Assembly: GCA_017992505.1 (NCBI GenBank)
Contig: JAGOON010000001.1
Location: forward strand, 2,532-66,531
Origin: Minisyncoccota bacterium
Lineage (GTDB): Bacteria > Patescibacteriota > Minisyncoccia > Phycocordibacterales > UBA918
Length of the DNA stretch: 64,000 nt
Direction of reading: 5' to 3'
Below, one piece after another: positions 9,799 to 27,257 of the stretch (position 1 is its first letter; each line of letters begins with the position of its first letter). Under the pieces are notes generated by a model that did not search any database, was not told the origin of the DNA, and worked only from the letters and a program-made list of their open reading frames with translations. The translations under genes and the position numbers were made by a program.

Positions 9799-10020
9799 AC
9801 GTAATGCTTATCCTAGCGTATACATAACAAAAAAGAAAGGTTCCTTCTGCAGCTCGCTGCCGCCAGATTCAGGTCTAGGAATGGACCTGAATCGTGGCGA
9901 AGCGCCTGCATAAATTCGCAATAGTCGGCTACGCCTCGTTTGCTCATTCAAAAGAAAAGGCCAGAGCTAATGCACTAACCTTTTCTTCTTACCCTGATAC
10001 TTAAAATTGAGAAAGATGTT

Positions 10021-10110
10021 CGGATGCGAGGCGCGGGAGGAAAATTGTGTGAGGCGTACTTAATGTACGGTGAACATAATTTTACCGAACTACAACGAAG
10101 CAGACGGGCG
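10021..10110. repeat. Conserved ~80-nt intergenic element, copy A, immediately 3' of greA. Homologous to 18225-18320
   Basis: About 80% identity to copy B over roughly 75 nt. Shared blocks are GGAGGAAAA, CGTAC-N4/5-GTACG hairpin and TTTTACCGAAC-N-GCAAC-AAGC. Confidence 0.6.
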
Positions 10111-10112
10111 TC

Positions 10113-10580: not shown

Positions 10581-10632
10581 AATGTAAAATTTTCCTAATT
10601 ATACGCACATAGTGCACTCGGTCAAATGGCGA

Positions 10633-12339: not shown

Positions 12340-12595
12340 ATCTCTTATATTGCATTAGAAGCTGTGGTCGGACAAATTCACTGGCGACATACCACAAAAT
12401 AGCTACCATGGTGATCATAGGGACGGAATAGAAGGCTCCAAAATATCCATCAATAAAGACCGCGAGTGGGATGAGCAATAGCGCACCTACCCGAAAGGTA
12501 AATACGACGACTAACAAAAATCCAACAATCAGGTGGTTCTGCATGACCATAAGTGCGATAAGTATAAAAAGTACGCAGTTTAAAAAGAATTTCAT
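12323..12595 (-). CDS. mreD: Rod shape-determining protein MreD-like small membrane protein
   Basis: 90-aa polytopic membrane protein between mreC and pbp2. Confidence 0.5.
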   Translation of the reverse strand: MKFFLNCVLFILIALMVMQNHLIVGFLLVVVFTFRVGALLLIPLAVFIDGYFGAFYSVPMITMVAILWYVASEFVRPQLLMQYKRYEEAT

Positions 12596-14566: not shown

Positions 14567-14581
14567 GTGGCGGTAATTGTA

Positions 14582-15850
14582 CTACGAGGCGTCCTTCGGG
14601 GCAAAATCTGCGAAAAGTTGCTCTTCGGTGAGCTGTCGCACTTCACTGGTTGCGCGAGTGACGACTTCGAAGAGTCCGTTTTCCTTCCCTTTCTTACTCA
14701 CTACCACACGATACGGAATACCAATAAGATCACTGTCTCCAAATTTTTCGCCCGCTCGTGCTTCGACACGGTCATCAAAAAGTACTTCGACACCTGCATC
14801 CTTGAGTGATGTGTATACACCCTCTGCCCAATCTTTGATCTCATTATCTTCGAGATTGAGTCCCACAAGATGCACCTTGAATGGAGCAACTGCTTCTGGC
14901 CACACAAGACCCTTGTCATCACCGAGCACTTCAACGAGTGTACCCATGAGACGAGTTGGGCCAATGCCGTATGAACCCATGTAGACAGGAACATCTTCAC
15001 CAGCCTCATTTTTATAGGTGAGTCCAAGTGGTTCTGAGAACTTTGTACCAAGATGGAAAATATTTCCTGATTCAATTGCTTTCTTTTCTACTAAATCAAC
15101 TTTATTGAGACCGAGCTTCGCTATCACTTCATCGGTATACACTTCTTTATTGAGTGCAATGCCAGTTTTTTCGTCAACGTAAATTAAATCTTCTCCGGCG
15201 TCCGAAACTGTTTGGAATTCTTCTGAAAACTCACTGAAGATACCGCCTGAAGCGTAAGTGACATATGTAAGATGTCCCACTCCTACGCGTTCAAAAACGC
15301 GTTTGTACGCTTCGCGCATACGAGCATAAAATTCATTATGTTCAACTTCATCTCTAGAAAAATCGTAAAGATCCTTCATCATGAATTCACGACCGCGCAT
15401 AATACCACTCTTGGCACGAGTTTCGTTGCGAAACTTATTTTGGAACTGATACGCGTACTTTGGCAAATCACGATATGAAGAGATGTGATCTTTCATAATC
15501 CGAGTGAGCGGTTCTTCGTGTGTGATACTAAGTCCGAGTACGGTGCCGTTCTTGAGTTCAGTCTTAAACCAGTTATCGACCTTCGCGTCGTCCCAACGGT
15601 CAGTTTTTTCCCACACTTCACCATCTTGGAGCGCGGTCATAACGATTTCCTGTCCACCTTCGCGATTCATTTCTTCGCGAATGATTTGTACGATTTTATT
15701 AAGTACTCGCAATCCAAGCGGGAGATAGCTATACACCCCAGCCATTTCTTTATAGACATACCCTGCACGGATAAGAAGTTGGGCATTCTTTGCCACTTCA
15801 TCAGCCGGAGCTTCCTTTCGAGTTTTAGTAAATAGTTGTGTCTGTCTCAT
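14582..15850 (-). CDS. proS: Prolyl-tRNA synthetase (short form without an editing insertion)
   Basis: Class II aaRS motifs and a ProRS-like N-terminus (MRQTQLFTKTRKEAPADEVAKNAQLLIRAGY). Length 422 aa. Confidence 0.85.
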   Translation of the reverse strand: MRQTQLFTKTRKEAPADEVAKNAQLLIRAGYVYKEMAGVYSYLPLGLRVLNKIVQIIREEMNREGGQEIVMTALQDGEVWEKTDRWDDAKVDNWFKTELKNGTVLGLSITHEEPLTRIMKDHISSYRDLPKYAYQFQNKFRNETRAKSGIMRGREFMMKDLYDFSRDEVEHNEFYARMREAYKRVFERVGVGHLTYVTYASGGIFSEFSEEFQTVSDAGEDLIYVDEKTGIALNKEVYTDEVIAKLGLNKVDLVEKKAIESGNIFHLGTKFSEPLGLTYKNEAGEDVPVYMGSYGIGPTRLMGTLVEVLGDDKGLVWPEAVAPFKVHLVGLNLEDNEIKDWAEGVYTSLKDAGVEVLFDDRVEARAGEKFGDSDLIGIPYRVVVSKKGKENGLFEVVTRATSEVRQLTEEQLFADFAPKDAS

Positions 15851-15856
15851 GGAAAT

Positions 15857-16954
15857 TTAGAATAAGCGAACAATATCATTAAAAGTAACAGCTGCCATCA
15901 GTACCATAAGAAGCACGAAGCCGAGGAGATTGACCCAGCCCGTGACACGAGCAGGTACACGACGTTTTGTAATGGCCTCTACGACCACAAAGGCGAGTCT
16001 ACCGCCATCAAGCGCTGGAAATGGAAGGAGGTTCACCACAGCGAGATTAAGGGAGATAATAGCGGTAAACATAAGGAGTGGCGTGAGGCCGTATGAGGCT
16101 GCGTCGCCTACCATACCAACAATCCCGACCGGACCGGCAATCGTTGAAAAATCTGCCTCACCAATAAGTGATTCTTTGAGTAATGTACCGAGTCCGACCG
16201 TAATACTGACGAGTCCGTCTACCGTCATCATAAAACCATCGCCGATAGCATTGATGAATGATTCCTTTTTGACTTCAATAAGTGAAAGTGAAGCACCGAC
16301 CACGTACTTTGAAGCGTCTTCAGCAACCAAACCAGTCTTGGGAGTAAGTGAAACACTGACCATTTCATCATCGTGCTCGTATGTTACCGCGATCGCTTCT
16401 GGTGCGTGTTCGGAAACGAAGCTACTGAATGTACTTGGAGTTGGTGTTTTAAGAACATCGTTACCCGATTCTGCCTTTACGATTACCGAACCAACTGGGA
16501 GCACCCCTTCAGCTGGTGCTCCAGGGAGTGTTCCTGCAACAACAAGCTGTGAGTTTGCAGTCGCTTTTGATTCTTCAATAGCAGTTGGCACTCCGATAAT
16601 AAGCACCAGAGTAAAGAGGAGCCAAGCAAAGAGTATATTCATCGTAATACCCGCAACCAACACCACAGCCTGTGCCCACTTTGGGCGCTCATGGAACGCG
16701 CGTCCAACATCTGAAGGATTTCTTTCTTTTCCATCTTCTTCAGCATTCTCTCCGTATATTTTTACATACCCACCGATTGGTAAGAGGTTGAAGTTGTATT
16801 CTGTCTCCCCTCGTTTAATACCAAACATCTTCGGTGGGAACCCAATCGCAAACTCATCAACACGCATACCTGTCTTTTTGGCGGTGATGTAATGTCCCCA
16901 TTCGTGCACCAATACGAGCACGAAGAGAACAAGGAGAAACAAGAAAATGGACAT
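15857..16954 (-). CDS. rseP: RIP zinc metalloprotease RseP (site-2 protease)
   Basis: HEWGHYITAK HExxH motif in the first TM, a PDZ-like middle region and an LDGG motif near the C-terminus. Confidence 0.8.
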   Translation of the reverse strand: MSIFLFLLVLFVLVLVHEWGHYITAKKTGMRVDEFAIGFPPKMFGIKRGETEYNFNLLPIGGYVKIYGENAEEDGKERNPSDVGRAFHERPKWAQAVVLVAGITMNILFAWLLFTLVLIIGVPTAIEESKATANSQLVVAGTLPGAPAEGVLPVGSVIVKAESGNDVLKTPTPSTFSSFVSEHAPEAIAVTYEHDDEMVSVSLTPKTGLVAEDASKYVVGASLSLIEVKKESFINAIGDGFMMTVDGLVSITVGLGTLLKESLIGEADFSTIAGPVGIVGMVGDAASYGLTPLLMFTAIISLNLAVVNLLPFPALDGGRLAFVVVEAITKRRVPARVTGWVNLLGFVLLMVLMAAVTFNDIVRLF

Positions 16955-16957
16955 AGA

Positions 16958-17497
16958 TTATTTTTGTAGTTCGATTTCTTTTTGAGTAAAGAGCGCCTCT
17001 AATGATCGGTTAGCATCATCGACTTGATTTTGTACCTTTTCCTTTTGGGAAAATTTATCGTCTTCACTTATGTCACCGTCCTTTTGTGCCTTATCAATGG
17101 CTTTCATTGATTCGTCACGAACTGCACGAACTGAAATACGAGCGTCTTCAAGTTTTGACTTTGCGAGCTTAAGAAGCTGTACGCGACGCTCCGAGGTAAG
17201 GTCTGGAAAGATTACGCGAACCCCATCTGAATCTGAGGCAGTTGAGATACCGAGATTTGCTTCCTGAATGGCACGCTCAATAGCTGAGACAGCGCCCTTA
17301 TCCCAGACACTAATACGCAGTGTTCGAGCGTCTTCAATATTGACGCTCCCCACTTGGTTGATTGGTAAGTACGAGCCATAACTTTCTACCTTGACCCCAT
17401 CAAGCAACATCGGACTAGCCTGCCCAGTACGAATACCCGCGTACTCTTTTATGAGCCATTCATTAACTTCTTTTAATTTGTCAGAAATATTTTCCAT
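16958..17497 (-). CDS. frr: Ribosome recycling factor
   Basis: 179-aa full-length match to the RRF fold (IRTGQASPMLLDGVKVESYGS...). Confidence 0.9.
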   Translation of the reverse strand: MENISDKLKEVNEWLIKEYAGIRTGQASPMLLDGVKVESYGSYLPINQVGSVNIEDARTLRISVWDKGAVSAIERAIQEANLGISTASDSDGVRVIFPDLTSERRVQLLKLAKSKLEDARISVRAVRDESMKAIDKAQKDGDISEDDKFSQKEKVQNQVDDANRSLEALFTQKEIELQK

Positions 17498-17550
17498 ATC
17501 TATCTAAACGTTTTATGTATGTGCCAGTGTAGCACTTTTTTATGCCTATT

Positions 17551-18168
17551 TTAAGCGGGTAATACCAACGCTAGGTGTTCGAGTAAAAACTTATTTGAAG
17601 CACCACGAGTAAGGAGGAGTCTCGTCACATACTCTAGTTCAGACAGTGTTTCCTTGGGAAGTGTAATGGCGGACTCTTTGAGATACTGTATGAGGCCCTT
17701 TTTGATAGCGTTTTGCCAGATATGATCCTTTTGCTTGGTGGCTTGCTCAATCTGCGCCATGCGCTCACCATAGGAAGCATCTTTAAAAGAAGCAAACGCC
17801 TTGTAGTCAACAATCTCACTAACAGTCCCTACTCGTTCAAAACGAGACTCAAGTGTGGGTAAAAAGCTATATCCTTCTGGGATAATGAATACGAACATTG
17901 TCGAGCGTGGTGGTTCTTCGATAATCTTAAGCAACGCTTGCTGCGCCTCTTCAGTCACAAACTCAGTCGCGACAATAATCGTGCGCGTGTCGGTTTCTCC
18001 ATCTGGCCTGCGGTGGGCGTTTATGATGAGTGTGCGGACATCATCAATACCAAACTGCGCAGTTCGATACTGATCAGTTACGGGCACCGCACTATATGCA
18101 TCAATTGTCGCAATGAGTGGAGCTTCTGAAGAAAACAAAACAGCATGATGGGAATTCATGCCGTTCAT
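17551..18168 (-). CDS. holB: DNA polymerase III delta'-like (HolB-like) short clamp-loader subunit
   Basis: LLKIIEEPP motif (the LLKTLEEPP box of clamp-loader subunits). 205 aa, degenerate P-loop. Confidence 0.55.
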   Translation of the reverse strand: MNGMNSHHAVLFSSEAPLIATIDAYSAVPVTDQYRTAQFGIDDVRTLIINAHRRPDGETDTRTIIVATEFVTEEAQQALLKIIEEPPRSTMFVFIIPEGYSFLPTLESRFERVGTVSEIVDYKAFASFKDASYGERMAQIEQATKQKDHIWQNAIKKGLIQYLKESAITLPKETLSELEYVTRLLLTRGASNKFLLEHLALVLPA

Positions 18169-18173
18169 TATGG

Positions 18174-18179
18174 ATTGTA
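18174..18179 (-). promoter_or_regulatory. -10 hexamer TACAAT 5 nt upstream of the holB-like ATG (leaderless-type promoter). TTGACA lies 11 nt further upstream
   Basis: Minus strand reads TTGACAcatataccagaTACAATccataATG. Confidence 0.45.
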
Positions 18180-18224
18180 TCTGGTATATGTGTCAAAGGG
18201 CTCACAAATTAGAGCGTCACAAAA

Positions 18225-18320
18225 TAATCTGAGGCGAGGCGCTGGAGGAAAACAGATTGAGACGTACCTATGTACGGCGAAATTTTTTTTACCGAACAGC
18301 AACAAAGCTTCAGGTTATTT
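18225..18320. repeat. Conserved ~80-nt intergenic element, copy B, immediately 3' of the Pro-rich gene. Homologous to 10021-10110
   Basis: See copy A. On the minus strand it aligns GCTTTGTTGCTGTTCGGTAAAAAAAATTTCGCCGTACATAGGTACGTCTCAATCTGTTTTCCTCCAGCGCCTCGC with copy A. Confidence 0.6.
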
Positions 18321-18328
18321 TTGGCGTT

Positions 18329-19762
18329 CTAACCTTTTTGCAGATCGAGGATATGGCGTATAACTCGTCGCAGATAGTGTTCGAAGGTTTCGCCCTGTTG
18401 ATAGATTATACCTTGCTCGTAGCGCCATCCGTTCATATAGTCAGTAATACTTTGTTTGATTTCCTGCGTCGCCCCCTCAAAACGCCCAGCAAGTAGGAGT
18501 GGGATATGAAGCGGTGCAATCTTTTTAAAGAGTGGGTGCTCGTGACCTTTAGGACCAGTACCGAAAAGACCGCTCTTTTTAAATATAGACCATTCTGAGA
18601 GTAACTGTTCAAGACCATCATCAACTTCCTTATTAAAAAGTGGATCACCTGACGAAATCGCGGAAGCTTTGAGGGATGCAGTCGCCTGCAAATCTTCGAG
18701 AGTATGTGGCTTCTTTAAATCTGCAAGTGACGCGAAGCCAGCTGGTTGAGCTGGCGCTGGGGCCGGAGCAGCAGACGGAGCTGCTTCTTCATGCGACCAT
18801 GAAGGAGACGCCACTGTTGCAGGTTGTGGGAGAATATCTTTTTCACTTGGTTTATAGGCAGGAACTGGCTGAAACGGCTCACCAGTAGGAACGGCAGCGA
18901 CTCTATGCACTGGTTCGGCTTGAAGAACTGGAGTTTCTTCAACTGATATATTTACTTCCTGTACTGCTGGGGTGGTTTTTGGGCTCACAGCGACTACATT
19001 CACTGTACCGCCACTCGTCTGGTGGGTTTCAAGGGCCTTGAGTACCGATGCGTACGACTCCTCAAGACGCTTCATTGCTGAGGCAGCCGAAGAACCGCTA
19101 TTGAGTTTCTTCATCGCATCGAGGAGTGCTCCCATGTATTCACGCCCAACTTCATTATCAATATCGACAAGATTCACTGGGTTACCGACTTTTTCGTTTA
19201 CAGAGGCTTTAATCTCTCGAATACGAGTAAGGTACTCTCCAACATCAGCTACTGGAGTCACTGGCTCTGGAACAGCCGATACTACAGGAACTGGTTCAGG
19301 CACCTGTTGTGGAATTGGTGCCTCGACCACTGGTGCAGGCTGAACAACGGGCTCTGGGGTGGCTTGGTGTGGTGTCCAAGCTGGCTGTGCACTAAAGACT
19401 GGAATCGAAGAAACGGGCACCTGTTGTGGCGCACTTTGTGCTACGGGTGCAGGCGTGAAAGTCGGAGCAACACGAAACTTTCCGATAGTCGGTTGAGGTG
19501 GAAGTGTTTGGGTTGATTGAGGACTAATTTTTCTTGGTGCTGGGGTTACCCGATATGCGACTATTTTTTGTTCAAGCGCGAGACGAACAGTCTGATCCTT
19601 TCCGCCGTTTGTATACAAAAAAACCAAGTCACGGAGTTCGCTTTTTTGTGGAGCCCCAATTTCACTTGTTCGGATAGACGCAAGTAAATGCATCACTCCT
19701 GCTTGTGACTCAAAATCAAAGACGGCGTTCCCATTTATGGGCAAAGAACCAACACTCACCAT
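18329..19762 (-). CDS. Hypothetical Pro/Ala/Val/Gln-rich protein (third gene of the ATPase module)
   Basis: 477 aa. Three predicted globular segments separated by PxxP/PAPV low-complexity linkers. No signal peptide or TM seen. Confidence 0.5.
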   Translation of the reverse strand: MVSVGSLPINGNAVFDFESQAGVMHLLASIRTSEIGAPQKSELRDLVFLYTNGGKDQTVRLALEQKIVAYRVTPAPRKISPQSTQTLPPQPTIGKFRVAPTFTPAPVAQSAPQQVPVSSIPVFSAQPAWTPHQATPEPVVQPAPVVEAPIPQQVPEPVPVVSAVPEPVTPVADVGEYLTRIREIKASVNEKVGNPVNLVDIDNEVGREYMGALLDAMKKLNSGSSAASAMKRLEESYASVLKALETHQTSGGTVNVVAVSPKTTPAVQEVNISVEETPVLQAEPVHRVAAVPTGEPFQPVPAYKPSEKDILPQPATVASPSWSHEEAAPSAAPAPAPAQPAGFASLADLKKPHTLEDLQATASLKASAISSGDPLFNKEVDDGLEQLLSEWSIFKKSGLFGTGPKGHEHPLFKKIAPLHIPLLLAGRFEGATQEIKQSITDYMNGWRYEQGIIYQQGETFEHYLRRVIRHILDLQKG

Positions 19763-19830
19763 ATAGAGTTCATGATAGCATTTTTTAAAAAATGAAAAAC
19801 AAAAAAGTTATGAACAGGCTGTGTATTACA

Positions 19831-21357
19831 CTACGCAGCCATTGTCTCGTCATGTTGCAATAATGTTTCAAGTTCGGCACGAATGAAGAGCTCACCAAAT
19901 GTTATCGTCGGATGAGCATGGGTGATGTCTATCATTGAATTCAGTGAATCAATCCAATCAAGATAAACTTCATACTTAATATCGCGCTCTTGCAGTTTTG
20001 CTCTAACAACATCACGTGACTGACTATCAAAGTCGACCACTTCTTTTACAGTCATACTTCGGAGAAAATCATAGAAGGCGCTTTTGTATGCAAAACCAAA
20101 GGCAGAGTCAAATTTTGATGGCGCTTCGATTCCCTGAATCTCACGTCGCACCATTGCCTCAAACTGCGCTACCGATGGAAAGTTGTATGCAACGAACTTT
20201 CCATAACGAGGGATTGCCAAGACTTTTTCGATTACCCCACCCCATTCGCCCTTATAAGCTCTTTCAACGCGCTCGATTGAGGGTTTGGTTGGTGAATTAT
20301 GAATTGCCTTCGGTCGAGGCGGGTTGCTTGCTATGAGCTCTGGCTTTTTGACGAGTGTAATTGGAACAATTTTCTCTTCAGTTTCTGCTTCCTTTGCAAC
20401 TTCAATAGCACCAGTTGGTTGTCTTTTTATATCAATGTTAACGAGCGGAATTTCTTCGTCCTTTTCAAAGAAACCCCCAAGACCCTTATCGAGCTGAATG
20501 AGATTATCTGATATTTCATCTACTGCATCTTCAAAATGCTCGGACGTTAGTTCAGTGACTTTATCATCCCTATCGAGATACTCCCTGATACTTTTAAAAG
20601 TCGTTCGCGCACGGTCAGTGGTGATGACGAGTTGTTTGTAGTAGTGTTGCCCTACATTCAAAACAGCATCCGGAGATACTACCTCGTTAATTTCTTGGTA
20701 CTTTGCGAGAAGTGCTTCTGCTTGCTCAATGAGCATTTCAGTTTTTTCCTCAAGTGTATTCAATTTACTTTTCTCAACAGTGGCACTCTCATCAACAACC
20801 AACTCCTTATCAGGCTCAACTTGAGGACCGGCAACTATTTCTTCAATTTCTTTTATAACAATCTCTTCTTCCGCAACCATTACTTGTTCCACTTCTGGTT
20901 TTACAAAGTCTTGGGTCATACTGTCTTCAGGAACCAACTCAACGGGGACTGATTCGGAGACAGTTTTTATCGGTAAGGTGTCGACCACAATCGGTGTGAC
21001 TTCTGGCATTACCACCACCTCATTTTCTACGACCGCCTCAATGGATTCAATACCATCAAGAATATCAATGAGCTCGTTGTAATGGGTTTGAATTTCGTTC
21101 GCAAGCGTTTCATCTACATCACCCCCTTCATCTTTAAGTAAAAAGGCAGTATTGAGTTTTTCTTTCAGCGTCTCGTAGAGATGAGACACATTTTCTAATT
21201 GGTTGTGTGATGACTCACCCGAGTGAGCCTTGATGTACTCTATGAGTTCAGTATACGCATCTTCCGTGTGGCGCGAAAAAGCCTGTAGGCCTTCCCTAGT
21301 ATTGATATCAATATCTTCTTGCACCTCTTCGGCGGTGGTCATTCGTTCCATGCTCAT
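19831..21357 (-). CDS. Hypothetical highly acidic (Glu/Asp/Val-rich) protein, start overlapping the upstream ATPase stop
   Basis: 508 aa. Its ATG overlaps the stop of the upstream ATPase gene (ATGA). The acidic coiled N-terminal two-thirds are followed by a conserved-looking C-terminal domain (EWGGVIEKVLAIPRYGKFVAYNFPS...). Confidence 0.5.
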   Translation of the reverse strand: MSMERMTTAEEVQEDIDINTREGLQAFSRHTEDAYTELIEYIKAHSGESSHNQLENVSHLYETLKEKLNTAFLLKDEGGDVDETLANEIQTHYNELIDILDGIESIEAVVENEVVVMPEVTPIVVDTLPIKTVSESVPVELVPEDSMTQDFVKPEVEQVMVAEEEIVIKEIEEIVAGPQVEPDKELVVDESATVEKSKLNTLEEKTEMLIEQAEALLAKYQEINEVVSPDAVLNVGQHYYKQLVITTDRARTTFKSIREYLDRDDKVTELTSEHFEDAVDEISDNLIQLDKGLGGFFEKDEEIPLVNIDIKRQPTGAIEVAKEAETEEKIVPITLVKKPELIASNPPRPKAIHNSPTKPSIERVERAYKGEWGGVIEKVLAIPRYGKFVAYNFPSVAQFEAMVRREIQGIEAPSKFDSAFGFAYKSAFYDFLRSMTVKEVVDFDSQSRDVVRAKLQERDIKYEVYLDWIDSLNSMIDITHAHPTITFGELFIRAELETLLQHDETMAA

Positions 21358-24188
21358 ATCATATCAGGCATTGCCGAGATTGGTGGCGGTGGCGGTGGAA
21401 CGGGCTTTTGGTACCGTACACGTATTTCCTCTTCGATTTCGGCTCGTGCTCGCCCATAGCGAGCGTAACTTTGTTCAATCAACATTGCTACTCGTTCTGG
21501 ATTTGATGCTTGTGGCGGTAATGTTGAGAGACTAAATGGCGGTGTTGGCGTACCGTTGGCCAAAATGCGCATGTACGCACTGCGATTTGGAACATTCATA
21601 AGATCGCTTGCACTAAAGGTTGGTGCGTATTGTTGCTCCAAGAACTGCGCATCCTCAGGGCCCACCCTGAAAGCTGCAAGTGAGCCGACATTCCCGAAAA
21701 CTGCGTCTTTTATGTCTGGTTGAAGCTGAGCGATAAATTGGTGCGCCATAGTGAGTCCAAGTTTGTATTTACGAGCTTCTGAAAGAATCGCCGAGATAGA
21801 ATCCGTAGAAATATTCTGAAATTCGTCCATATGAAGGTAGAATGGTGGATATTTTTTGAGGGGGTCATCAACGCGCGAAAGCGCAGCCATGAGGAGTTTC
21901 CCTACAAAAATCATACCGATAAGATTGGCATTAATTTCACCAATACGACCTTTGGCAAGATTTACCAGCAAAATCTTTCGCTCATCCATAAGAAGGCGGA
22001 AATTGAAAGCGCTACGCTGCTGTCCGATAATTGGTCGCATATAGTCATTTGCGGTGAAGACGTCAAATTTTGAAACGATGTATGGCACGATGTTTTCGAG
22101 CGCAGCTTCCCCACCTGCCTTTGTTGCAATCTCTCGCCAGAACTGGACGACGACTGGGTTCGTTGCTTTTTCGAGTTTCTGTCGTCGATAGCGAGCATCG
22201 ACCATTACTCTTGAAATATCCATGAGTGTATTCCCACTTTCTGGATCTTCCATTACAAGCATAGTGGCATTGCGGAAATACTGCTCAAACATTGGACCCA
22301 TAGATTCTGGATTGCCACCGTAGAGCTTTTTAAAAATAGAAAAGAGTTCGTTGACCACAAACGTCTTTTGTTCTGGCTTTGAGTAATCAAACTCGAGCAT
22401 ATTGAGGCCAATGACTCGATCAAGACGAGCGGGATCAAAATAGATGACGTCCTGCTCTCGGTGTGGCGGAACGGCAGCGAGGACATCTTCGATGTCTGTG
22501 CCATGCGGATCAATCATACACACACCGTCACCACGCATAATATCTTGAACAATCATGTTCTTCATGAGTGTTGTCTTACCTGTCCCTGTCTGACCAATGA
22601 TATAAAAATGACGCAGACGGTCTTCAGCGGTGATGAAGATTTTTCTTTCCGTACCACGGTGAGCATTAATGCCAAGAACAGTACCTTCGATAGGCATAGT
22701 GGTGGGCGCTGGAGCTGTTTGTGCGTATGACTGCTTAAACTGAGGGGCCGCAGCGCCAGAAGCAGCATTTTGAGGGAAATGCACCAATGTCGCTAACTCT
22801 CGAATTGAGAGTGGCACAATCCCTTTCACAGATAACTCACGAAATGAAAATGCTCGAAGCGCCCGCTTCTGCGCCAGACCAGTGAGACGATTGAACACAA
22901 AGGCATTTCCATCAACTGAATTAAAAGCTAAAAATGTCGATTCTATTTCTGACATTATCTGTTTAGCCCGCACATCTGTCTTTGCCGAGACCACCATACG
23001 GATGTTTGTTTCAACAATATCGGTAGTGATTTTCTTGCGGAAGAGTTCGATGGAACGTGTGTCAATTTCTTTTGGTGGTACCTGCACCTCTTCCTTTTTC
23101 TTATTGGTGAAAAAGAGGTCAGTGACAGTATTTTTAAATTCACCAATCATTGAACTCCGTGCAATTGCGTCCGCTGGTTTCGTGCCTTTTTCAACTTCTT
23201 TAATGATAGATTCGTATGTACTGCGATACTTGTCATGTGGGTACCGCACAATAAACTGAAGCGCCGCTCCTCCACCTTCACGTTCGATTTTTGAGAAGGC
23301 GTTTAAAATAACTGAGAATGGGTCAGCAGTGAATTCATCATGTGGTTTCAAAGGATAGATGGGGTGCTTTCTGAGACTTACTTCAGAAACGAGTGCCACT
23401 CCACCATCGGCAAAAATATTATAATCATGCGGTTGAATTGTCAGTACTGCGTGTGGAAAGAGTGAGAGTGTCTGCTTTTCAAAAAGCGTCGCAAATTCAT
23501 TTGGCACTGCAACGTAGTACACGATATCGTCACTATTATCAGCAACCGCTACCTCGATGACGAAGTGATTCCCCGCTTGAACTGAACCAATCGTTCGAAG
23601 ACCCGCCAACAGTTGCTCCATAACGCCGACCAGTTGCGCAAGTTGTTGTGCATTTCCATCTGGAGTACTTTGTGACGGAAGTATCACTTCAAAGAGCGTC
23701 ATATGAAGGATGTGCCATGGTGGCAAGCCTTCGCGCAAATCCGCTATCTGTGCACCAGAGCGAATTTGTTCAATAAGTTGACGATGTACTTCGTCGACAA
23801 TGTAGGTGTTATTTGTTTGTTCGAGTACAGTGAGAGCATTTTTGATTCCCTTCTCGTATGCCAACTGCATAATATCCTCAACAGGATTATGTGACACTAC
23901 CACCGCTTCAACGGAACGATTGAGTTCGTCACCACTAAGTTCATAGTTTTTATCGAGCACCATTTTGGGGGTAAAGCTCATGTAGTTTTTTATCTCCTGT
24001 TTACCAAGCGTTTCGATGTCGGTGCGGTCAATGGAGGGCGTACGATCCAGCATCTGACGCTCCCGCTGTGCGATACGCGCACGCAAAAACTCAAGCTCTT
24101 CTTGAGGAGAGGAAAACTGCCTTGGCACACCTTCAATCATGCGTTCATTGTACACGCAAAAGGCGCGCCAAAGGCGCGCCTTAACCAC
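21354..24188 (-). CDS. Soluble TraG/TraD/VirD4-family (TraG-D_C-like) P-loop ATPase with a ~480-aa N-terminal domain of unknown function. Alternative start Met17 at 24140
   Basis: Walker A GQTGTGKTT and Walker B LHMDEFQN, then RKYKLGLTMAHQFIAQLQ...GNVGSLAAFRVGPEDAQ matching the VirD4/TraD C-terminal signature. No N-terminal TM helices. Poly-Pro C-terminus. Confidence 0.55.
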   Translation of the reverse strand: MVKARLWRAFCVYNERMIEGVPRQFSSPQEELEFLRARIAQRERQMLDRTPSIDRTDIETLGKQEIKNYMSFTPKMVLDKNYELSGDELNRSVEAVVVSHNPVEDIMQLAYEKGIKNALTVLEQTNNTYIVDEVHRQLIEQIRSGAQIADLREGLPPWHILHMTLFEVILPSQSTPDGNAQQLAQLVGVMEQLLAGLRTIGSVQAGNHFVIEVAVADNSDDIVYYVAVPNEFATLFEKQTLSLFPHAVLTIQPHDYNIFADGGVALVSEVSLRKHPIYPLKPHDEFTADPFSVILNAFSKIEREGGGAALQFIVRYPHDKYRSTYESIIKEVEKGTKPADAIARSSMIGEFKNTVTDLFFTNKKKEEVQVPPKEIDTRSIELFRKKITTDIVETNIRMVVSAKTDVRAKQIMSEIESTFLAFNSVDGNAFVFNRLTGLAQKRALRAFSFRELSVKGIVPLSIRELATLVHFPQNAASGAAAPQFKQSYAQTAPAPTTMPIEGTVLGINAHRGTERKIFITAEDRLRHFYIIGQTGTGKTTLMKNMIVQDIMRGDGVCMIDPHGTDIEDVLAAVPPHREQDVIYFDPARLDRVIGLNMLEFDYSKPEQKTFVVNELFSIFKKLYGGNPESMGPMFEQYFRNATMLVMEDPESGNTLMDISRVMVDARYRRQKLEKATNPVVVQFWREIATKAGGEAALENIVPYIVSKFDVFTANDYMRPIIGQQRSAFNFRLLMDERKILLVNLAKGRIGEINANLIGMIFVGKLLMAALSRVDDPLKKYPPFYLHMDEFQNISTDSISAILSEARKYKLGLTMAHQFIAQLQPDIKDAVFGNVGSLAAFRVGPEDAQFLEQQYAPTFSASDLMNVPNRSAYMRILANGTPTPPFSLSTLPPQASNPERVAMLIEQSYARYGRARAEIEEEIRVRYQKPVPPPPPPISAMPDMI
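24147..24152 (-). promoter_or_regulatory. -10 hexamer TACAAT 6 nt upstream of the Met17 ATG of the ATPase gene
   Basis: Minus strand reads GGCGCGCCttttgcgtgTACAATgaacgcATG. Confidence 0.4.
24160..24182. promoter_or_regulatory. Perfect GC palindrome GGCGCGCC-AAA-GGCGCGCC (candidate operator) abutting the ATPase-module promoter
   Basis: AAGGCGCGCCAAAGGCGCGCCTT. Each half is itself palindromic. It is located in the -35 region of the putative promoter. Confidence 0.45.
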
Positions 24189-24222
24189 ACCTCCAAATTT
24201 AAGAGCGTCCTAAAAAGTACCT

Positions 24223-24262
24223 ATCTACTTTGTATCCTTAAATACAAAGTAGATGAGTGCTC
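24223..24262 (-). terminator. Rho-independent terminator of the mreB-paralogue gene
   Basis: Minus strand ATCTACTTTGTA-tttaagga-TACAAAGTAGAT (12-bp perfect stem) followed by a T-run. Confidence 0.7.
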
Positions 24263-24274
24263 TTTGGGACGCGG

Positions 24275-25309
24275 TTATTTTTTGCTCAAGACTGCTCGTT
24301 TGTATACATCTAGGTGTTCGAGCGCCGTCCCGGTTCCTTTTACTACACAAAAGAGTGCTTGGTCGGCCACAACCGCCTTCACCCCCAAACGTCGGCGAAT
24401 GAGCTCTGGAAAATTACGGAGCTGAGACGTACCACCAGTCATGATAATACCCCCATCGATAATGTCTGCAGCAAGCTCTGGTGGAGTCTCTTGAAAAACA
24501 TCTCGTATTGCCTTTATCATTTCCTTCAATTCTTTTCCAATCGCACGTACAACTTCATTACTCTTGATTTCGGTTGTACGAGGCAAACCAGAAATCATGT
24601 CCCTTCCTTTAATTTCCATCACCAACTCTTCTTCAAGTGGAAGTGCTGAACCAACTTTAATTTTTATATCCTCAGCCGTCTTTTCACCAATCGCGAGATT
24701 TCGAGTCTTCTTCACATAGTCCACAATCGACATATCGATACGGTTGCCCGCGCACTTAACTGAGTTCGAGGCTACGATACCCCCAAGCGAAATTACTGCC
24801 ACATCGATAGTACCGCCACCGATATCAACAATCATATGTCCTTGCGCTTCATATATAGGTACACCTGCACCAATAGCAGCGAGAATTGGTTCTTTCACCA
24901 CAAACGCATTCTTGGCGCCCGCCCGCATGGCAGCTTCTACTACCGCCCGACGCTCAGTTGAAGTCACGCCCGCTGGCACCGACACCATCACATCTGGCCT
25001 AAAGAGGCTGTACTTACTCATGGATTTTTTGAGGAAGTATCGAAGCATCGCTTCAGTAACGCGATAATCAGCAATGACGCCGTCACGCATTGGACGATAG
25101 GCTCGAATACTATCGGGAGTACGTCCAATCATTTGCTTGGCTTCGGTTCCAACAGCAAGCACCTCGTTGTCCTCAGAAATAGCAACAACTGACGGCTCAT
25201 TAAGTACAATTCCTTGTCCTGGAATAAACACCAAAATACTGGTAGTACCAAGGTCGATGCCGATTTTAGGAGTTAAGCTACCAAACATGTTAGGCACATA
25301 TACTACCAC
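24275..25309 (-). CDS. Second MreB-family actin homologue (Mbl/MreBH-like paralogue)
   Basis: IGIDLGTTSILVFIPGQGIVLNEPSVVAI and VDIGGGTIDVAVISLGG. Length 344 aa. A distinct paralogue from the mreB at 13493-14566. Confidence 0.8.
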   Translation of the reverse strand: MVVYVPNMFGSLTPKIGIDLGTTSILVFIPGQGIVLNEPSVVAISEDNEVLAVGTEAKQMIGRTPDSIRAYRPMRDGVIADYRVTEAMLRYFLKKSMSKYSLFRPDVMVSVPAGVTSTERRAVVEAAMRAGAKNAFVVKEPILAAIGAGVPIYEAQGHMIVDIGGGTIDVAVISLGGIVASNSVKCAGNRIDMSIVDYVKKTRNLAIGEKTAEDIKIKVGSALPLEEELVMEIKGRDMISGLPRTTEIKSNEVVRAIGKELKEMIKAIRDVFQETPPELAADIIDGGIIMTGGTSQLRNFPELIRRRLGVKAVVADQALFCVVKGTGTALEHLDVYKRAVLSKK

Positions 25310-25339
25310 AAAGCCTATACCCAGCCCATGGATACACCT

Positions 25340-25357
25340 TATAGCATATCTGCTATA
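25340..25357. promoter_or_regulatory. Inverted repeat TATAGCA-tatc-TGCTATA upstream of the HTH-MurA gene (candidate autoregulatory operator overlapping a -10-like TATACT)
   Basis: 7-bp perfect arms sitting 12 nt upstream of the murA ATG. Confidence 0.4.
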
Positions 25358-25368
25358 CTCACCTTTGT

Positions 25369-26868
25369 ATGCAAGATATAGGAACCCGCATTGCGGACGT
25401 ACGAGAAACCCTCGGTCTTACTCAATCTGATTTAGCTAAAAAATTAAAAACTACCCAAAGTGCCATCGCTCGCATAGAGAGCGGAAAGCAAAATGTTAGT
25501 GCAGATATGCTTAAACGCATCGGCAAGGCGCTGGGGAAAAATCTCATCACCCTCTCCCCAGGTACGGTAAATGTTCAAGTAAACGGCGGAAAGAAGCTTT
25601 CCGGTACCATACAAACCAACACCTCTAAAAACGGTGCAGTAGGACTCCTTTGCGCTTCTCTTCTTAATAAAGGCACAACTACCCTTCATGGTATGCCACG
25701 TATCGAAGAGGTGCACCGTCTCATTGAAGTACTGCAAAGTATCGGCGTGAGGGTTGAGTGGATCAAAAACTCCGTTCGCATTACCCCTCCTGAGAAAATC
25801 AATCTTGCAAAAATTGATGTTGAAGCGGCCCGCCGTACTCGTAGTATCGTAATGTTCATCGGCCCCTTAATTCACCGTATGAACACCTTCGCACTTCCGC
25901 AGTCTGGCGGTTGTAAACTTGGTAGTCGAACAGTGCGACCGCACTTTTATGCACTCGAAGAATTCGGCGTTTATATCAATACCACCGACAGCGCCTATGA
26001 GGTGTCAGTAAAGCCCAAGCAACCTAAAGAAATTATCCTCTATGAATCAGGTGACACCGTGACCGAAAACGCACTCATGGCAGCGGCACTCTTTAAGGGC
26101 ACTACCACTATCAAGTATTGCTCAGCCAACTACATGGTGCAAGAAATGTGTGTATTTCTTCAGCATCTTGGTGTTCAGATTGAAGGAATTGGTACCACTA
26201 CACTCACTATCACGGGTTGTAAAGAAATCAAGCAGGATGTTGAGTACCACCTTGCGGAGGACCCAACCGATAGTATGTTTTTCTTGGCTACTGCAATTGT
26301 CACCAATTCTTCAATTACTATCACACGCTGTCCGATTGAGTTCCTTGAACTTGAGCTCCTCACACTCAAAAAGATGGGCTTCAAGTACACGCAGTCAAAG
26401 CCATACCTTGGTAAGAATGGTCAGGTGAAGTTGGTTGATATTGTAACCAAATCATCAAAGATGGTCGCAGTTTCCGAAAAAATCCACTCCCGTCCCTACC
26501 CTGGCATCAACGCCGATAACCTCCCTTTCTTTGCGGTCATCGCGACGCAAGTGAGCGGACAAACCCTTATTCACGACTGGATGTATGAAAAGCGAGCAAT
26601 TTACTTTACCGAACTTGATAAACTTGGTGGTGATACCGTCCTTGCTGACCCGCACCGTATCTACATTACTGGTCCAAGCAAGCTCCGCGCTAACGAACTC
26701 GTCTGTCCGCCCGCACTTCGTCCAGCGACTATTCTTTTGATTGCAATGCTCGGCGCCGAGGGGCGATCAATTCTTCGCAACATCTACAGCATTAATCGCG
26801 GCTACGAAAAGCTCGTCGAGCGACTTGAATCACTTGGCGCCAGCATCAGCTACCTTGACGAGTTCTAA
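25369..26868 (+). CDS. murA: UDP-N-acetylglucosamine 1-carboxyvinyltransferase MurA with an N-terminal XRE-type HTH domain
   Basis: The N-terminal ~65 aa are a Cro/C1-type HTH (LGLTQSDLAKKLKTTQSAIARIESGK). The rest is full MurA with the catalytic-Cys loop PQSGGCKLGSRTVRPH and C-terminal SINRGYEKLVERLESLGA. Confidence 0.8.
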   Translation: MQDIGTRIADVRETLGLTQSDLAKKLKTTQSAIARIESGKQNVSADMLKRIGKALGKNLITLSPGTVNVQVNGGKKLSGTIQTNTSKNGAVGLLCASLLNKGTTTLHGMPRIEEVHRLIEVLQSIGVRVEWIKNSVRITPPEKINLAKIDVEAARRTRSIVMFIGPLIHRMNTFALPQSGGCKLGSRTVRPHFYALEEFGVYINTTDSAYEVSVKPKQPKEIILYESGDTVTENALMAAALFKGTTTIKYCSANYMVQEMCVFLQHLGVQIEGIGTTTLTITGCKEIKQDVEYHLAEDPTDSMFFLATAIVTNSSITITRCPIEFLELELLTLKKMGFKYTQSKPYLGKNGQVKLVDIVTKSSKMVAVSEKIHSRPYPGINADNLPFFAVIATQVSGQTLIHDWMYEKRAIYFTELDKLGGDTVLADPHRIYITGPSKLRANELVCPPALRPATILLIAMLGAEGRSILRNIYSINRGYEKLVERLESLGASISYLDEF

Positions 26869-27244: not shown

Positions 27245-27250
27245 TATAAT
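27245..27250 (+). promoter_or_regulatory. TATAAT -10 box 7 nt upstream of the priA-like ATG (27258)
   Basis: ggttttttgcTATAATgccacccATG. Confidence 0.5.
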
Positions 27251-27257
27251 GCCACCC

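What the first reader, a model, noticed from the sequence alone, without database searches (positions are those of the whole stretch)
18329..24188. Uncharacterised three-gene module: soluble VirD4/TraG-like ATPase with a novel N-terminal domain, coupled to an acidic protein and a Pro-rich protein
The 944-aa protein has a C-terminal half that matches the type IV coupling-protein / TraG-D_C ATPase family. The evidence is Walker A GQTGTGKTT, Walker B LHMDEFQN, and the RKYKLGLTMAHQ...AAFRVGPEDAQ signature.

Unlike conjugative coupling proteins it has no N-terminal transmembrane helices. Instead it carries a roughly 480-aa N-terminal domain that I cannot assign to any family.

Its stop overlaps (ATGA) the start of a 508-aa extremely acidic protein. 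A 477-aa protein follows, built of short globular segments joined by PAPV/PxxP low-complexity linkers. Neither partner has recognisable domains, signal peptides or other T4SS components nearby. This is therefore not a canonical conjugation or T4SS locus.

The unit has its own TACAAT promoter, a GC-palindrome operator candidate, and a conserved 3' element (copy B of the intergenic repeat). A second MreB paralogue sits just upstream.

Possible functions for such an ATPase with two partners are DNA or protein translocation, or a defence or epibiont-interaction role.
Basis: partly seen in the sequence, partly recalled or inferred. Interest (0 to 1): 0.78.

Follow-up and report, generated by a model that had tools for sequence, protein, structure and literature searches.

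The report
Orphan soluble VirB4/VirD4-like ATPase operon
This is a chromosomal three-gene operon of a Patescibacteria (Paceibacteria) genome, built around a very conserved, membrane-free motor ATPase descended from conjugation machinery, and it matters because this ATPase family is near-universal in these tiny bacteria yet sits outside any secretion locus and has no known job.

Summary
The three minus-strand genes are real and co-directional, and the module recurs in every close relative examined. The first gene is most likely 928 aa (ATG at 24140), not 944.

**The ATPase**
- Its C-terminal half is a type IV coupling-protein-like P-loop motor with intact Walker A and B motifs.
- Its "unassignable" N-terminus is already catalogued as Pfam DUF8128.
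- The family has at least 600 matches in Patescibacteria genomes and comes in two forms:
  - membrane-anchored proteins of about 800 aa, each preceded by a small separate gene;
  - soluble proteins of about 920 aa in which that small protein is fused to the N-terminus. The window holds a soluble one.

**The partners**
- The Pro-rich and acidic partner genes accompany only one subclade, with ATPases at least 64% identical to this one.
- Other soluble members sit alone in ribosomal-protein or cell-division gene clusters.

**Context**
- Published work already noted about two orphan coupling-protein homologues per Patescibacteria genome, found more widely than VirB4.
- Function remains unknown. 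My best reading is a coupling-protein-like hexameric motor with lineage-specific adaptor or tether proteins.

It is a new variant of a known kind, of moderate interest.

The parts
24195..24282 (-). Long hairpin between the MreB-paralogue stop and the ATPase start. The inner 14-bp stem at 24223-24254, followed by a U-run, is terminator-like.
   Evidence: (I2) and 95: MFE -36.7 kcal/mol, z = -6.5. Strong GC hairpins with U-runs occupy the same position in L092 and L014.
24162..24180 (-). GGCGCGCC-TTT-GGCGCGCC, two 8-bp palindromes. Candidate operator; function untested.
   Evidence: Read directly from the sequence. Conservation in relatives was not examined.
24147..24152 (-). TACAAT, a -10-like hexamer 6 nt upstream of the ATG with no Shine-Dalgarno sequence. 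Implies a leaderless or near-leaderless mRNA.
   Evidence: The identical TACAAT, or TATACT/TACACT/TAATAT, lies 5-9 nt before the orthologous ATG in L092, L093, L003, L014 and L001.
21354..24140 (-). Gene 1: 928-aa soluble DUF8128 / T4CP-like ATPase (class S, subclade S1). The maximal ORF from the GTG at 24188 is 944 aa.
23706..24140 (-). N-terminal extension (residues 1-145). Helical, with motifs FSSPQEELEFLR (9-20) and EKGIKNAL (96-103). Homologous to a separate 130-150-aa gene that precedes the membrane-anchored paralogues.
   Evidence: BLASTP 1e-6 to 1e-4 to residues 15-126.
22773..23705 (-). DUF8128 core (about residues 146-456). An alpha/beta domain predicted to resemble the VirB4 N-terminal domain.
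21501..22685 (-). P-loop motor domain (about residues 486-880) of the VirD4/TraD/HerA-FtsK kind. Walker A at 22572-22595, Walker B at 21813-21836, RKYKLGLTMAHQ at 21738-21773.
   Evidence: The motif residues are invariant in alignments A1 and A3.
19831..21357 (-). Gene 2: acidic 508-aa protein (506 aa in the public annotation). Helical N-terminal block, acidic variable middle, C-terminal domain of about 150 aa. Fast-evolving.
   Evidence: Positional orthologues range from 268 to 1260 aa. No gene 2 homologue is present in L013.
18329..19762 (-). Gene 3: 477-aa protein with three conserved helical blocks (about 15-75, 174-249, 370-477) joined by variable Pro-rich linkers. The C-terminal block is almost invariant.
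   Evidence: It follows the ATPase in every S1 locus that has enough downstream sequence.
18270..18308 (-). Copy B of a 39-nt two-copy repeat (copy A at 10063-10101), 21-59 nt downstream of the gene 3 stop codon. Significance doubtful.
   Evidence: D3, 79% identity. Folding is not above shuffles. The g3-holB spacer is only 2-24 nt in relatives.
24275..25309 (-). Upstream MreB-like paralogue. A neighbour, transcribed separately.
   Evidence: A terminator separates it from gene 1.

Best explanation
**Identity (well supported)**
- Gene 1 is the soluble ('class S') member of a Patescibacteria-wide family of ATPases.
- The family joins a VirB4-type N-terminal domain (Pfam DUF8128) to a type IV coupling-protein (VirD4/TraD)-type P-loop motor.
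- It descends from monoderm conjugation machinery. Its closest relatives outside the phylum are soluble 886-aa 'DUF87' proteins placed next to the relaxase-like gene in Tcp-type conjugation loci of small Bacillus plasmids.
- In Patescibacteria the family is chromosomal and has left the T4SS locus. The tree, which groups the soluble members by gene context, suggests vertical inheritance (not tested against a species tree).
- The family comes in two forms:
  - a single-pass membrane-anchored form, preceded by a small soluble protein;
  - a soluble form in which that small protein is fused to the N-terminus.
- In the subclade to which this window belongs, the soluble ATPase heads its own transcription unit, probably leaderless.
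- That unit also carries a variable acidic protein (gene 2) and a strongly conserved protein of three small helical domains on long Pro-rich linkers (gene 3).

**Mechanism (inferred, not shown)**
- Like its relatives, the protein assembles as a hexameric ring and uses ATP to engage and move a polymer (DNA or an unfolded protein), or to recruit cargo. That is, it works like a coupling protein.
- The VirB4-like N domain and the N-terminal extension act as docking surfaces.
- Gene 3, and the variable gene 2, act as dedicated multivalent adaptors or tethers, or as cargo, for the motor.
- The exit route, if any, would be the chromosomal T4SS encoded elsewhere or the membrane-anchored paralogue.
For: **Motor domain**
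- Pfam: DUF87 above its cut-off, TrwB_AAD_bind above its cut-off; TraG-D_C and T4SS-DNA_transf just below.
- NCBIfam: SXT_TraD 8.7e-16; the VirD4-like CD1115 family aligns across residues 503-837.
- Best PDB sequence hits are TrwB and DotL.
- Walker A and B residues and the R790/K791/Q801 block are invariant across 26 close and 14 distant homologues.

**N domain**
- DUF8128 by precomputed annotation.
- VirB4/TrwK is the top structural match by two methods.

**Two architectures and the fusion**
-.

**Relatives in conjugation loci**
- Bacillus plasmid NZ_CP032854.1 has the order: DUF87 protein, replication-relaxation protein, conjugal transfer, TcpE, second ATPase.
- BLASTP to that DUF87 protein is 3.9e-40 over residues 204-876, and it also lacks a transmembrane helix.

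**Operon**
- ATGA overlap, 68-nt g2-g3 gap, terminator upstream, conserved -10 element.
- The order ATPase, variable gene, g3 recurs in all close relatives: L001-L006, L011, L014, L092, L093. L013 lacks gene 2.

**Literature**
- Patescibacterial T4SS loci lack a coupling protein in cis (PMC10633639).
- 5,713 VirD4-type homologues were found in 2,918 of 3,035 genomes, only 148 of them near virB4 (PMC12102498).
- Adaptor-rich coupling complexes are an established precedent (DotL with DotM/N, IcmS/W, LvgA). This is my own knowledge; the DotL PDB hit is.
Against: **No interaction evidence**
- The ATPase half of the AF2 model is unreliable (pLDDT below 50), so hexamer and pore features are assumed from homology.

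**Weak family scores**
- T4CP family models are matched only weakly. NCBIfam scores are far below their cut-offs.

**Doubts about a T4SS link**
- Coupling-protein homologues occur in more genomes (96%) than VirB4 (80%) (PMC12102498).
- The 921-aa homologue SEML1_0293 of Southlakia epibionticum is dispensable in co-culture, while the T4SS is essential (PMC10633639, supplementary file 1). I could not establish whether it is orthologous to this class.

**Features more typical of core machinery**
- The ATPase alignment has 74% mean column identity, and the gene 3 C-terminal domain is nearly invariant. Such conservation, together with purely housekeeping neighbours, is more typical of core cell machinery than of secretion adaptors or effectors.
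- Distant soluble orthologues lack genes 2 and 3 altogether, so these partners cannot be essential to the family's basic function.
Confidence: 0.45

Rival explanations
1. Full exaptation to a cell-envelope or cell-cycle housekeeping role. The motor, with gene 3 as a flexible tether, works with the MreB paralogue or the elongasome/divisome (for example positioning or remodelling a cytoskeletal or wall-synthesis complex) and no longer has anything to do with secretion.
For: - The S1 operon always lies in the block MurA | MreB2 | ATPase-g2-g3 | HolB-RRF-RseP-ProRS | MreB-MreC-(MreD)-PBP2.
- Other soluble orthologues sit directly after mraZ-mraW-ftsL-ftsI(-murE) (L010, L015, L041, L067) or inside secY-adk-map/ndk.
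- A membrane-anchored member lies next to a POTRA/FtsQ-like gene (L007).
- Sequence conservation is extreme.
- The family is more widespread than VirB4 (PMC12102498).
- Long Pro-rich linkers between small domains are typical of division and tethering proteins such as ZipA and FtsK (my own knowledge).
Against: - The whole block is syntenic across the clade, so adjacency to MreB may only reflect low genome rearrangement.
- MreB2 is separated from the operon by a terminator, and in L001 by two unrelated genes.
- Three different housekeeping contexts give no single functional pointer.
- Neither partner shows any domain link to the cytoskeleton or the wall.
Confidence: 0.25
2. A cytoplasmic DNA translocase for chromosome handling or DNA uptake, acting as an FtsK/HerA/ComFA-like function carried out by a T4CP-derived ring.
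For: - The protein belongs to the HerA-FtsK/VirD4 superfamily.
- Its Bacillus relatives sit beside a relaxase-like gene, implying a DNA substrate ancestrally.
- Patescibacteria are naturally competent (PMC10633639).
Against: - The FtsK_SpoIIIE Pfam score is below its cut-off, and no FtsK_gamma match was reported in the Pfam scan.
- No NurA, Mre11/Rad50 or com genes lie nearby.
- A Saccharibacterium already has an annotated ftsK (PMC10768705).
- No DNA-binding domain is detectable in genes 2 or 3.
Confidence: 0.12
3. An anti-phage defence module built on a HerA/VirD4-like ATPase.
For: - PADLOC mad8 (6.4e-13) and weak HerA/DndH hits, all confined to the ATPase domain.
Against: - Genes 2 and 3 have no defence-family hits, and there is no nuclease, sirtuin or methylase partner.
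- The gene is near-universal, apparently vertically inherited, 67-91% identical across named candidate phyla, and fixed in a housekeeping block. This is the opposite of the patchy, island-borne pattern of defence systems.
Confidence: 0.04
4. A remnant of an integrated conjugative or phage element.
For: - Homologues occur on Bacillus, Clostridium, Streptomyces and archaeal plasmids and in SPO1-like phages.
- phrog_5156 matches at 1.8e-70.
Against: - GC content and skew are the same as in the flanks.
- No integrase, relaxase, VirB4 or other transfer genes turned up among the ORFs scanned, and the single tRNA gene is about 14 kb away.
- The chromosomal position is identical in many genomes.
Confidence: 0.03

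Closest known systems
Type IV coupling proteins (VirD4 / TrwB / TraD / TraG)
   Same: - P-loop motor of the same superfamily, with T4CP-type signatures from Walker A to the TraG-D_C region.
- A helical insertion is predicted between Walker A and Walker B.
- Relatives sit next to a relaxase-like gene in Bacillus conjugation loci.
   Different: - No transmembrane anchor.
- A 485-aa N-terminal region with a VirB4-like fold plus an extra helical module.
- No T4SS or relaxase found among the scanned genes of the 64-kb window.
- Scores are far below NCBIfam cut-offs.
VirB4 / TrwK ATPases of type IV secretion systems
   Same: - Overall two-domain architecture, N-terminal alpha/beta domain followed by a C-terminal P-loop domain.
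   Different: - No sequence-level match of the N domain to VirB4.
- VirB4 models touch only the P-loop.
- No VirB3/6/8 neighbours.
- Patescibacteria carry a separate, bona fide VirB4 (PMC12102498).
Orphan T4CP homologues of Patescibacteria (Quinonero-Coronel et al. 2025, PMC12102498; SEML1_0142 and SEML1_0293 in Wang et al. 2023, PMC10633639)
   Same: - Same phylum, about two copies per genome, encoded far from virB4, and suggested to be 'exapted for other functions'.
- Sizes are of the same order (921 and 1019 aa). A 139-aa gene immediately upstream of SEML1_0142 resembles the small gene that precedes the membrane-anchored class here.
   Different: - Those papers, as far as I read them, do not describe the N-terminal domain, the soluble versus membrane-anchored split, the fusion, or the two partner genes.
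- Orthology of SEML1_0293 or SEML1_0142 to this protein was not testable here.
Bacillus small-plasmid 'DUF87 domain-containing protein' (e.g. WP_121549396.1 on NZ_CP032854.1), SPO1 gp27.4 and phrog_5156
   Same: - Shares the DUF8128 core plus the motor (residues 204-876 align, E 3.9e-40).
- Also lacks a transmembrane helix.
   Different: - Lacks the N-terminal extension and carries a long acidic C-terminal tail.
- Sits in a plasmid conjugation locus or a phage genome rather than a housekeeping chromosomal block.
- Only 22-24% identical.
EccE of mycobacterial ESX type VII secretion systems
   Different: - EccE is a separate membrane protein, not fused to an ATPase.
- There is no sequence similarity, and no other T7SS parts are present.

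Membership tests
Type IV coupling protein (VirD4/TraG/TraD/TrwB) | N-terminal transmembrane anchor (usually two helices) | tested here: not met
   Kyte-Doolittle scan: no hydrophobic window in residues 1-480. All class S homologues have a maximum below 1.25, against 1.9-3.4 for most class M proteins.
Type IV coupling protein (VirD4/TraG/TraD/TrwB) | T4CP-type nucleotide-binding domain reaching curated family thresholds | tested here: inconclusive
   TrwB_AAD_bind scores 24.3 against a cut-off of 20.5, but over only 46 residues. T4SS-DNA_transf scores 16.7 (cut-off 20.1) and TraG-D_C 18.8 (cut-off 22). NCBIfam TraD/VirD4 models give E-values of 1e-6 to 9e-16 but bit scores far below their cut-offs.
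Type IV coupling protein (VirD4/TraG/TraD/TrwB) | All-alpha domain inserted in the nucleotide-binding domain | tested here: inconclusive
   Helices are predicted between Walker A and Walker B (about 590-760), but the model's pLDDT there is below 50.
Type IV coupling protein (VirD4/TraG/TraD/TrwB) | Encoded with a T4SS (VirB4 etc.) and/or a relaxase | tested here: not met
   None found among the ORFs scanned in the 64-kb window or in the relatives' loci; smaller window ORFs were not scanned. The literature reports only 148 of 5,713 homologues near virB4 (PMC12102498).
VirB4 ATPases | Two-domain fold: VirB4-type N-terminal domain plus C-terminal P-loop domain | tested here: met
VirB4 ATPases | Sequence membership (CagE_TrbE_VirB / AAA_10 / TIGR00929) | tested here: not met
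   AAA_10 scores 13.7 against a cut-off of 27.5. VirB4_CagE scores 17.8 against 643, over the P-loop only. The N-domain profile finds no VirB4 chain in the PDB.
VirB4 ATPases | Neighbouring VirB3/VirB6/VirB8-type membrane components | tested here: not met
   Neighbours are MreB, HolB, RRF, RseP, ProRS and MurA.
Pfam DUF8128 (PF26449) | Match to the family model | tested here: met
   Precomputed Pfam annotation lists it for the identical protein P0001 and for nearly all homologues and in locus tables. The local Pfam copy lacks this model, so I could not re-score it.
HerA (DUF87) helicases | DUF87/HerA central domain, with a HAS-barrel and a NurA partner | tested here: inconclusive
   DUF87 scores 30.6 against a cut-off of 23.2, but covers only residues 525-602 in 944-aa ORF numbering. 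No NurA-like neighbour is present. The N domain matches VirB4, not a HAS-barrel.
FtsK/SpoIIIE translocases | FtsK_SpoIIIE motor domain, gamma domain and membrane anchor | tested here: not met
   FtsK_SpoIIIE scores 14.9 against a cut-off of 24. There is no transmembrane helix, and no FtsK_gamma match was reported in the Pfam scan.
Anti-phage defence systems (PADLOC) | Full set of system genes in one locus | tested here: not met
   Only a mad8 hit on the ATPase domain. Genes 2 and 3 have no hits.

The most novel reading that the evidence does not exclude
**Proposal.** Patescibacteria have domesticated a conjugation-derived VirB4-fold/VirD4-type motor into a phylum-wide, T4SS-independent core machine.

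- In the Paceibacteria subclade seen here, the soluble form works with a nearly invariant three-domain tether protein (gene 3), and with the MreB paralogue next door.
- Together they would form a previously unknown cytoplasmic apparatus for cell-envelope growth, division or chromosome handling.

**Evolutionary reading.** The family may also be a surviving intermediate between VirB4 and coupling proteins, since it combines a VirB4 N domain with a T4CP motor.
Probability: 0.22. Interest if true: 0.8.

Novelty: new variant of a known kind. Interest (0 to 1): 0.55.

Why it matters
**An open question it bears on**
- Patescibacteria make up a large share of bacterial diversity, and their T4SS is essential in the one genetically tractable species.
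- That T4SS has no coupling protein in cis, while about two orphan coupling-protein homologues per genome remain unexplained.

**What this analysis adds**
- It gives those orphans an anatomy: a VirB4-like N domain, soluble and membrane-anchored forms, and a fusion that links a small protein to the motor.
- It identifies a clade in which the soluble form has two dedicated partner genes.

**What becomes testable**
- Does the motor bind genes 2 and 3?
- Does the motor dock on the membrane-anchored paralogue or on the T4SS?
- Is the substrate DNA or protein?

If the motor proves independent of secretion, it would be a clear case of conjugation machinery recruited to core cell biology.

Tried and rejected
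**Searches that found nothing**
- Sequence profiles of gene 2, gene 3 and the N domain against all PDB chains gave nothing meaningful.
- Foldseek of the gene 3 model against the PDB gave no hit below E = 1. The model's C-terminal domain is poorly predicted.
- Pfam, NCBIfam, PADLOC and PHROGs on genes 2 and 3 gave nothing significant.
- Rfam on 17400-25500 gave only a chance miRNA-like match to the hairpin.
- A full-text search for 'DUF8128' returned no papers.
- The afdb50 fold library was not available.

**Ideas tested and dropped**
- Genes 2 and 3 as paralogues: hhalign probability 0.6%, so rejected.
- 'Replaces a missing FtsK': weakened, because TM7x has an annotated ftsK. This was not tested in Paceibacteria.
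- The shared GACGCTCT..AATTTG motif that I noticed in both intergenic regions is at chance level.
- The 39-nt repeat does not fold better than shuffled sequence and is absent from relatives.
- Family 34 proteins, which lie downstream of the ATPase in the sister clade, are not gene 2 or gene 3 homologues.

**Limits of the structure work**
- The full-length AF2 model used a shallow alignment (at least 67% identity), so the ATPase half was unusable.
- Deeper homologues from the representative search could not be submitted to the structure tool.

Full report
**1. What is in the sequence**

Three co-directional minus-strand ORFs occupy 21354-24188, 19831-21357 and 18329-19762.

- The gene 1 stop overlaps the gene 2 start as ATGA. 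Genes 2 and 3 are 68 nt apart.
- GC content and skew match the flanks.
- The quoted ATPase motifs are present.
- None of the three proteins has a transmembrane-like segment. The only hydrophobic peak lies inside the ATPase core.
- Gene 2 has pI 4.5 and 21% Asp+Glu. Gene 3 is 11% Pro.

- The public annotation of the identical protein and all homologues of about 920 aa start there.
- The GTG at 24188 lies 1 nt after GGAGG.
- A -10-like hexamer is conserved 5-9 nt upstream of the orthologous ATG in six related loci. It is TACAAT here and in L092 and L093. This points to a leaderless or near-leaderless mRNA.

A long hairpin lies between the upstream MreB paralogue and gene 1 (-36.7 kcal/mol, z = -6.5; inner 14-bp stem followed by U's). 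L092 and L014 have strong GC-rich hairpins with U-runs at the same place. The operon is therefore its own transcription unit.

**2. The ATPase domain**

- Pfam gives DUF87/HerA (30.6 bits, above its cut-off) and TrwB_AAD_bind (above its cut-off, but over only 46 residues). TraG-D_C and T4SS-DNA_transf fall just below.
- NCBIfam gives conjugative TraD/VirD4 models. SXT_TraD scores 8.7e-16, and the CD1115 VirD4-like family aligns over residues 503-837. All are far below the equivalog cut-offs. VirB4 models touch only the P-loop.
- The best PDB sequence matches are TrwB and DotL.
- PADLOC gives only mad8 and HerA hits, confined to the motor.
- Walker A, Walker B and the RKY...HQ block are invariant in close and distant homologues.

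The motor is thus a T4CP-type member of the HerA-FtsK superfamily and is probably active.

**3. The N-terminal 485 residues**

This region is not unassigned. The precomputed annotation of the identical protein and of nearly all homologues lists Pfam PF26449, named DUF8128 in the locus tables.

An AlphaFold2 model built on 26 homologues is poor in the motor (pLDDT below 50) but good (70-90) over residues about 165-455, an alpha/beta domain.

- Foldseek independently lists nine TrwK/VirB4 chains as its nine best hits (E 1.6e-6 to 5e-4, probability 0.99-1.00).
- A sequence profile of the domain finds no VirB4 chain in the PDB, so the likeness is structural only.

The protein therefore combines a VirB4-like N domain, and VirB4-like overall architecture, with T4CP-like motor sequence.

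**4. The family and its two architectures**

- An exhaustive search with the N-terminal region found 765 representative clusters at E <= 1e-3. Those that carry names are from Parcubacteria or Minisyncoccia.
- A genome scan found at least 600 matches. All 80 loci kept are metagenome bins, most titled Patescibacteria/Parcubacteria; a few carry other taxon labels that I take to be mislabelled.
- Long members (885-1120 aa) have no transmembrane helix. They begin with a conserved helical module, F-x-x-P-E-E-E-I-x-Y-L-R ... EKGI-x-NAL ... D-x-F-H-R.
- Short members (790-840 aa) lack the first roughly 145 residues and nearly all start instead with one strong transmembrane helix.
- Immediately upstream of the short, membrane-anchored genes lies a separate ORF of 130-150 aa. 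It is homologous to residues about 15-126 of the long form (BLASTP 1e-6 to 1e-4).
- The soluble form is therefore a fusion of that small protein with the DUF8128-motor body minus the anchor, a Rosetta-stone relation implying that the small protein and the motor work together.
- In a neighbour-joining tree rooted on the Bacillus relative, the soluble proteins form one clade and the anchored ones lie outside it.

**5. Relatives outside the phylum**

- tblastn finds 'DUF87 domain-containing proteins' on 24-31-kb Bacillus plasmids, covering residues 195-859 at 22-23% identity. It also finds SPO1-like Bacillus phages (gp27.4), and the motor alone on Clostridium, Streptomyces, haloarchaeal and Sulfolobus plasmids.
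- phrog_5156, of unknown function, matches residues 191-906 at 1.8e-70.
- On B. subtilis plasmid NZ_CP032854.1 the 886-aa homologue (BLASTP 3.9e-40) has no transmembrane helix and an acidic tail.
- It is the first gene of a Tcp-like transfer locus: a replication-relaxation protein, conjugal transfer proteins, TcpE and a second 848-aa ATPase follow.
- This places the family's origin in monoderm conjugation systems, at the coupling-protein position. It also shows that a soluble form is not unique to Patescibacteria.

**6. The partner genes and the synteny test**

Gene 3:
- It has more than 850 homologues.
- Its alignment shows three conserved blocks (about 1-75, 175-245, 370-477) joined by Pro-rich linkers of very variable length. 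The C-terminal block is nearly invariant.
- AF2 predicts confident small helical bundles for the first two blocks, disordered linkers, and a low-confidence helical C-terminal domain.
- No structural or sequence relative was found.

Gene 2:
- It evolves fast, with only seven word-seeded hits.
- Positional orthologues nevertheless share its C-terminal domain of about 140 aa (1e-12 to 3e-8) and, weakly, its N-terminal block.
- Its length ranges from 268 to 1260 aa, and it is absent in L013.
- Genes 2 and 3 are not detectably related.

Synteny:
- The order MreB2 | ATPase | gene 2 | gene 3 | HolB | RRF | RseP | ProRS | MreB (| MreC | PBP2 ...) recurs in every locus whose ATPase is at least 64% identical to this one and has enough flank. 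These are L001-L006, L011, L013, L014, L092 and L093.
- About 28 of the top-120 hits for gene 1 and for gene 3 share the same longest-contig length.
- These loci form one subclade, S1.
- Soluble orthologues at 42-50% identity have neither partner.
  - Most sit between secY-adk-map and ndk in the ribosomal-protein region.
  - Others sit after mraZ-mraW-ftsL-ftsI(-murE).
  - A sister clade is followed by an unrelated large membrane protein.
- The three-gene module is therefore real but lineage-specific. The ATPase is the ancient part.

**7. What the literature adds**

Quinonero-Coronel et al. 2025 (PMC12102498):
- They found 5,713 VirD4-type homologues in 2,918 of 3,035 Patescibacteria genomes, only 148 of them near virB4.
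- VirB4 itself was found in 2,417 genomes.
- They state that exaptation 'cannot be ruled out'.

Wang et al. 2023 (PMC10633639):
- They report that the essential T4SS of Southlakia epibionticum lacks a recognisable coupling protein and relaxase.

Their supplementary Tn-seq table:
- SEML1_0293 (921 aa, 'T4SS DNA-binding domain') is listed as non-essential.
- SEML1_0142 (1019 aa, 'TraM recognition domain') is listed as essential, and the 139-aa SEML1_0141 immediately upstream as growth-defective or essential.
- The pairing of a small gene with an ATPase mirrors the arrangement I see for the anchored class. I could not obtain those sequences, so the orthology is untested.
- No paper mentions DUF8128.

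**8. How it most likely works**

Shown:
- a conserved, probably active T4CP-type motor;
- a VirB4-like N domain, by prediction;
- solubility;
- a fusion link to a small protein;
- an autonomous operon with two linker-rich helical proteins in one clade;
- purely housekeeping surroundings.

Inferred:
- ring assembly and polymer or cargo engagement, as in VirD4, VirB4 and FtsK;
- docking through the N domain;
- genes 2 and 3 acting as adaptors, tethers or cargo;
- possible hand-over to the T4SS or to the anchored paralogue.

I put this coupling-protein-like reading at about 0.45.

The main rival, at about 0.25, is complete exaptation to envelope or cell-cycle housekeeping.
- For it: the three housekeeping contexts, the extreme conservation (74% mean column identity), and the family's wider distribution than VirB4.
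- Against it: clade-wide synteny could explain the MreB adjacency without any functional link.

Roles as a DNA translocase, a defence system or a mobile-element remnant are less likely, for the reasons listed under the rival explanations.

**9. Novelty and verdict**

- The gene family is catalogued as a DUF and has been noticed in bulk as orphan T4CP homologues.
- As far as I can tell, the following are not described: the VirB4-like fold of DUF8128, the split into soluble and anchored forms with the fused small protein, the different chromosomal homes of the soluble form, and the gene 2 / gene 3 operon of the S1 clade.
- It is a new variant of a known kind, with unknown function and moderate interest (0.55).

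Noticed in passing
window 24147-24152 and 18174-18179 (minus strand); L092, L093, L003, L014, L001 upstream of the ATPase ATG: A -10-like hexamer (TACAAT or a close variant) lies 5-9 nt upstream of the start codon with no Shine-Dalgarno sequence, for both the ATPase and holB. This suggests that leaderless mRNAs are common in this lineage.
   Followed up: partly
L071, L073-L076, L083-L087, L089, L069 (ORF immediately upstream of the membrane-anchored ATPase); L007 9479-9967: A separate acidic ORF of 130-150 aa is homologous to the first roughly 125 residues of the soluble ATPase. This is a fusion/fission pair that predicts a physical complex in the membrane-anchored system.
   Followed up: partly
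window 25369-26868 (+): MurA (EPSP_synthase family) carries an N-terminal XRE-type helix-turn-helix domain. The fusion is conserved in L001, L003, L005 and L092 but absent in L093, where MurA is 436 aa. A DNA-binding domain on a cell-wall enzyme is unusual.
   Followed up: no
window 27249-29150 (+): A 633-aa ORF is conserved at about 630 aa in L001, L005 and L093 and has no Pfam hit at E <= 1e-5. It contains CxxC...CxxC motifs and may be a divergent PriA-like protein.
   Followed up: no
window 10063-10101 and 18270-18308: A 39-nt two-copy repeat (79% identity). Both copies lie just 3' of minus-strand genes and share a small CGUAC...GUACG hairpin. Folding is not above shuffled sequence, and the repeat is absent from related loci.
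   Followed up: partly
L011 6475-6774, L014 13421-13720, L092 8642-8938; L021, L031, L048, L049 and L063 (family 35): A very acidic ORF of about 100 aa sits between the gene 2 and gene 3 orthologues in some relatives. A similar small acidic ORF follows the large downstream gene in the sister clade. The window itself has no such ORF.
   Followed up: no
window about 8215-25309; L092 and L093: A long conserved block holds two MreB paralogues flanking the operon, followed by MreC, a small ORF (MreD?), PBP2, GreA and LysRS. The window also has a second PBP-type transpeptidase at 3933-5654.
   Followed up: partly
Bacillus phage SPO1 gp27.4 (NC_011421.1 93023-94558) and relatives; phrog_5156: SPO1-like phages and phage Nachito encode uncharacterised relatives of the motor. 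In Nachito the match also covers the DUF8128 core. The role of a coupling-protein-like ATPase in a lytic phage is unexplained.
   Followed up: no
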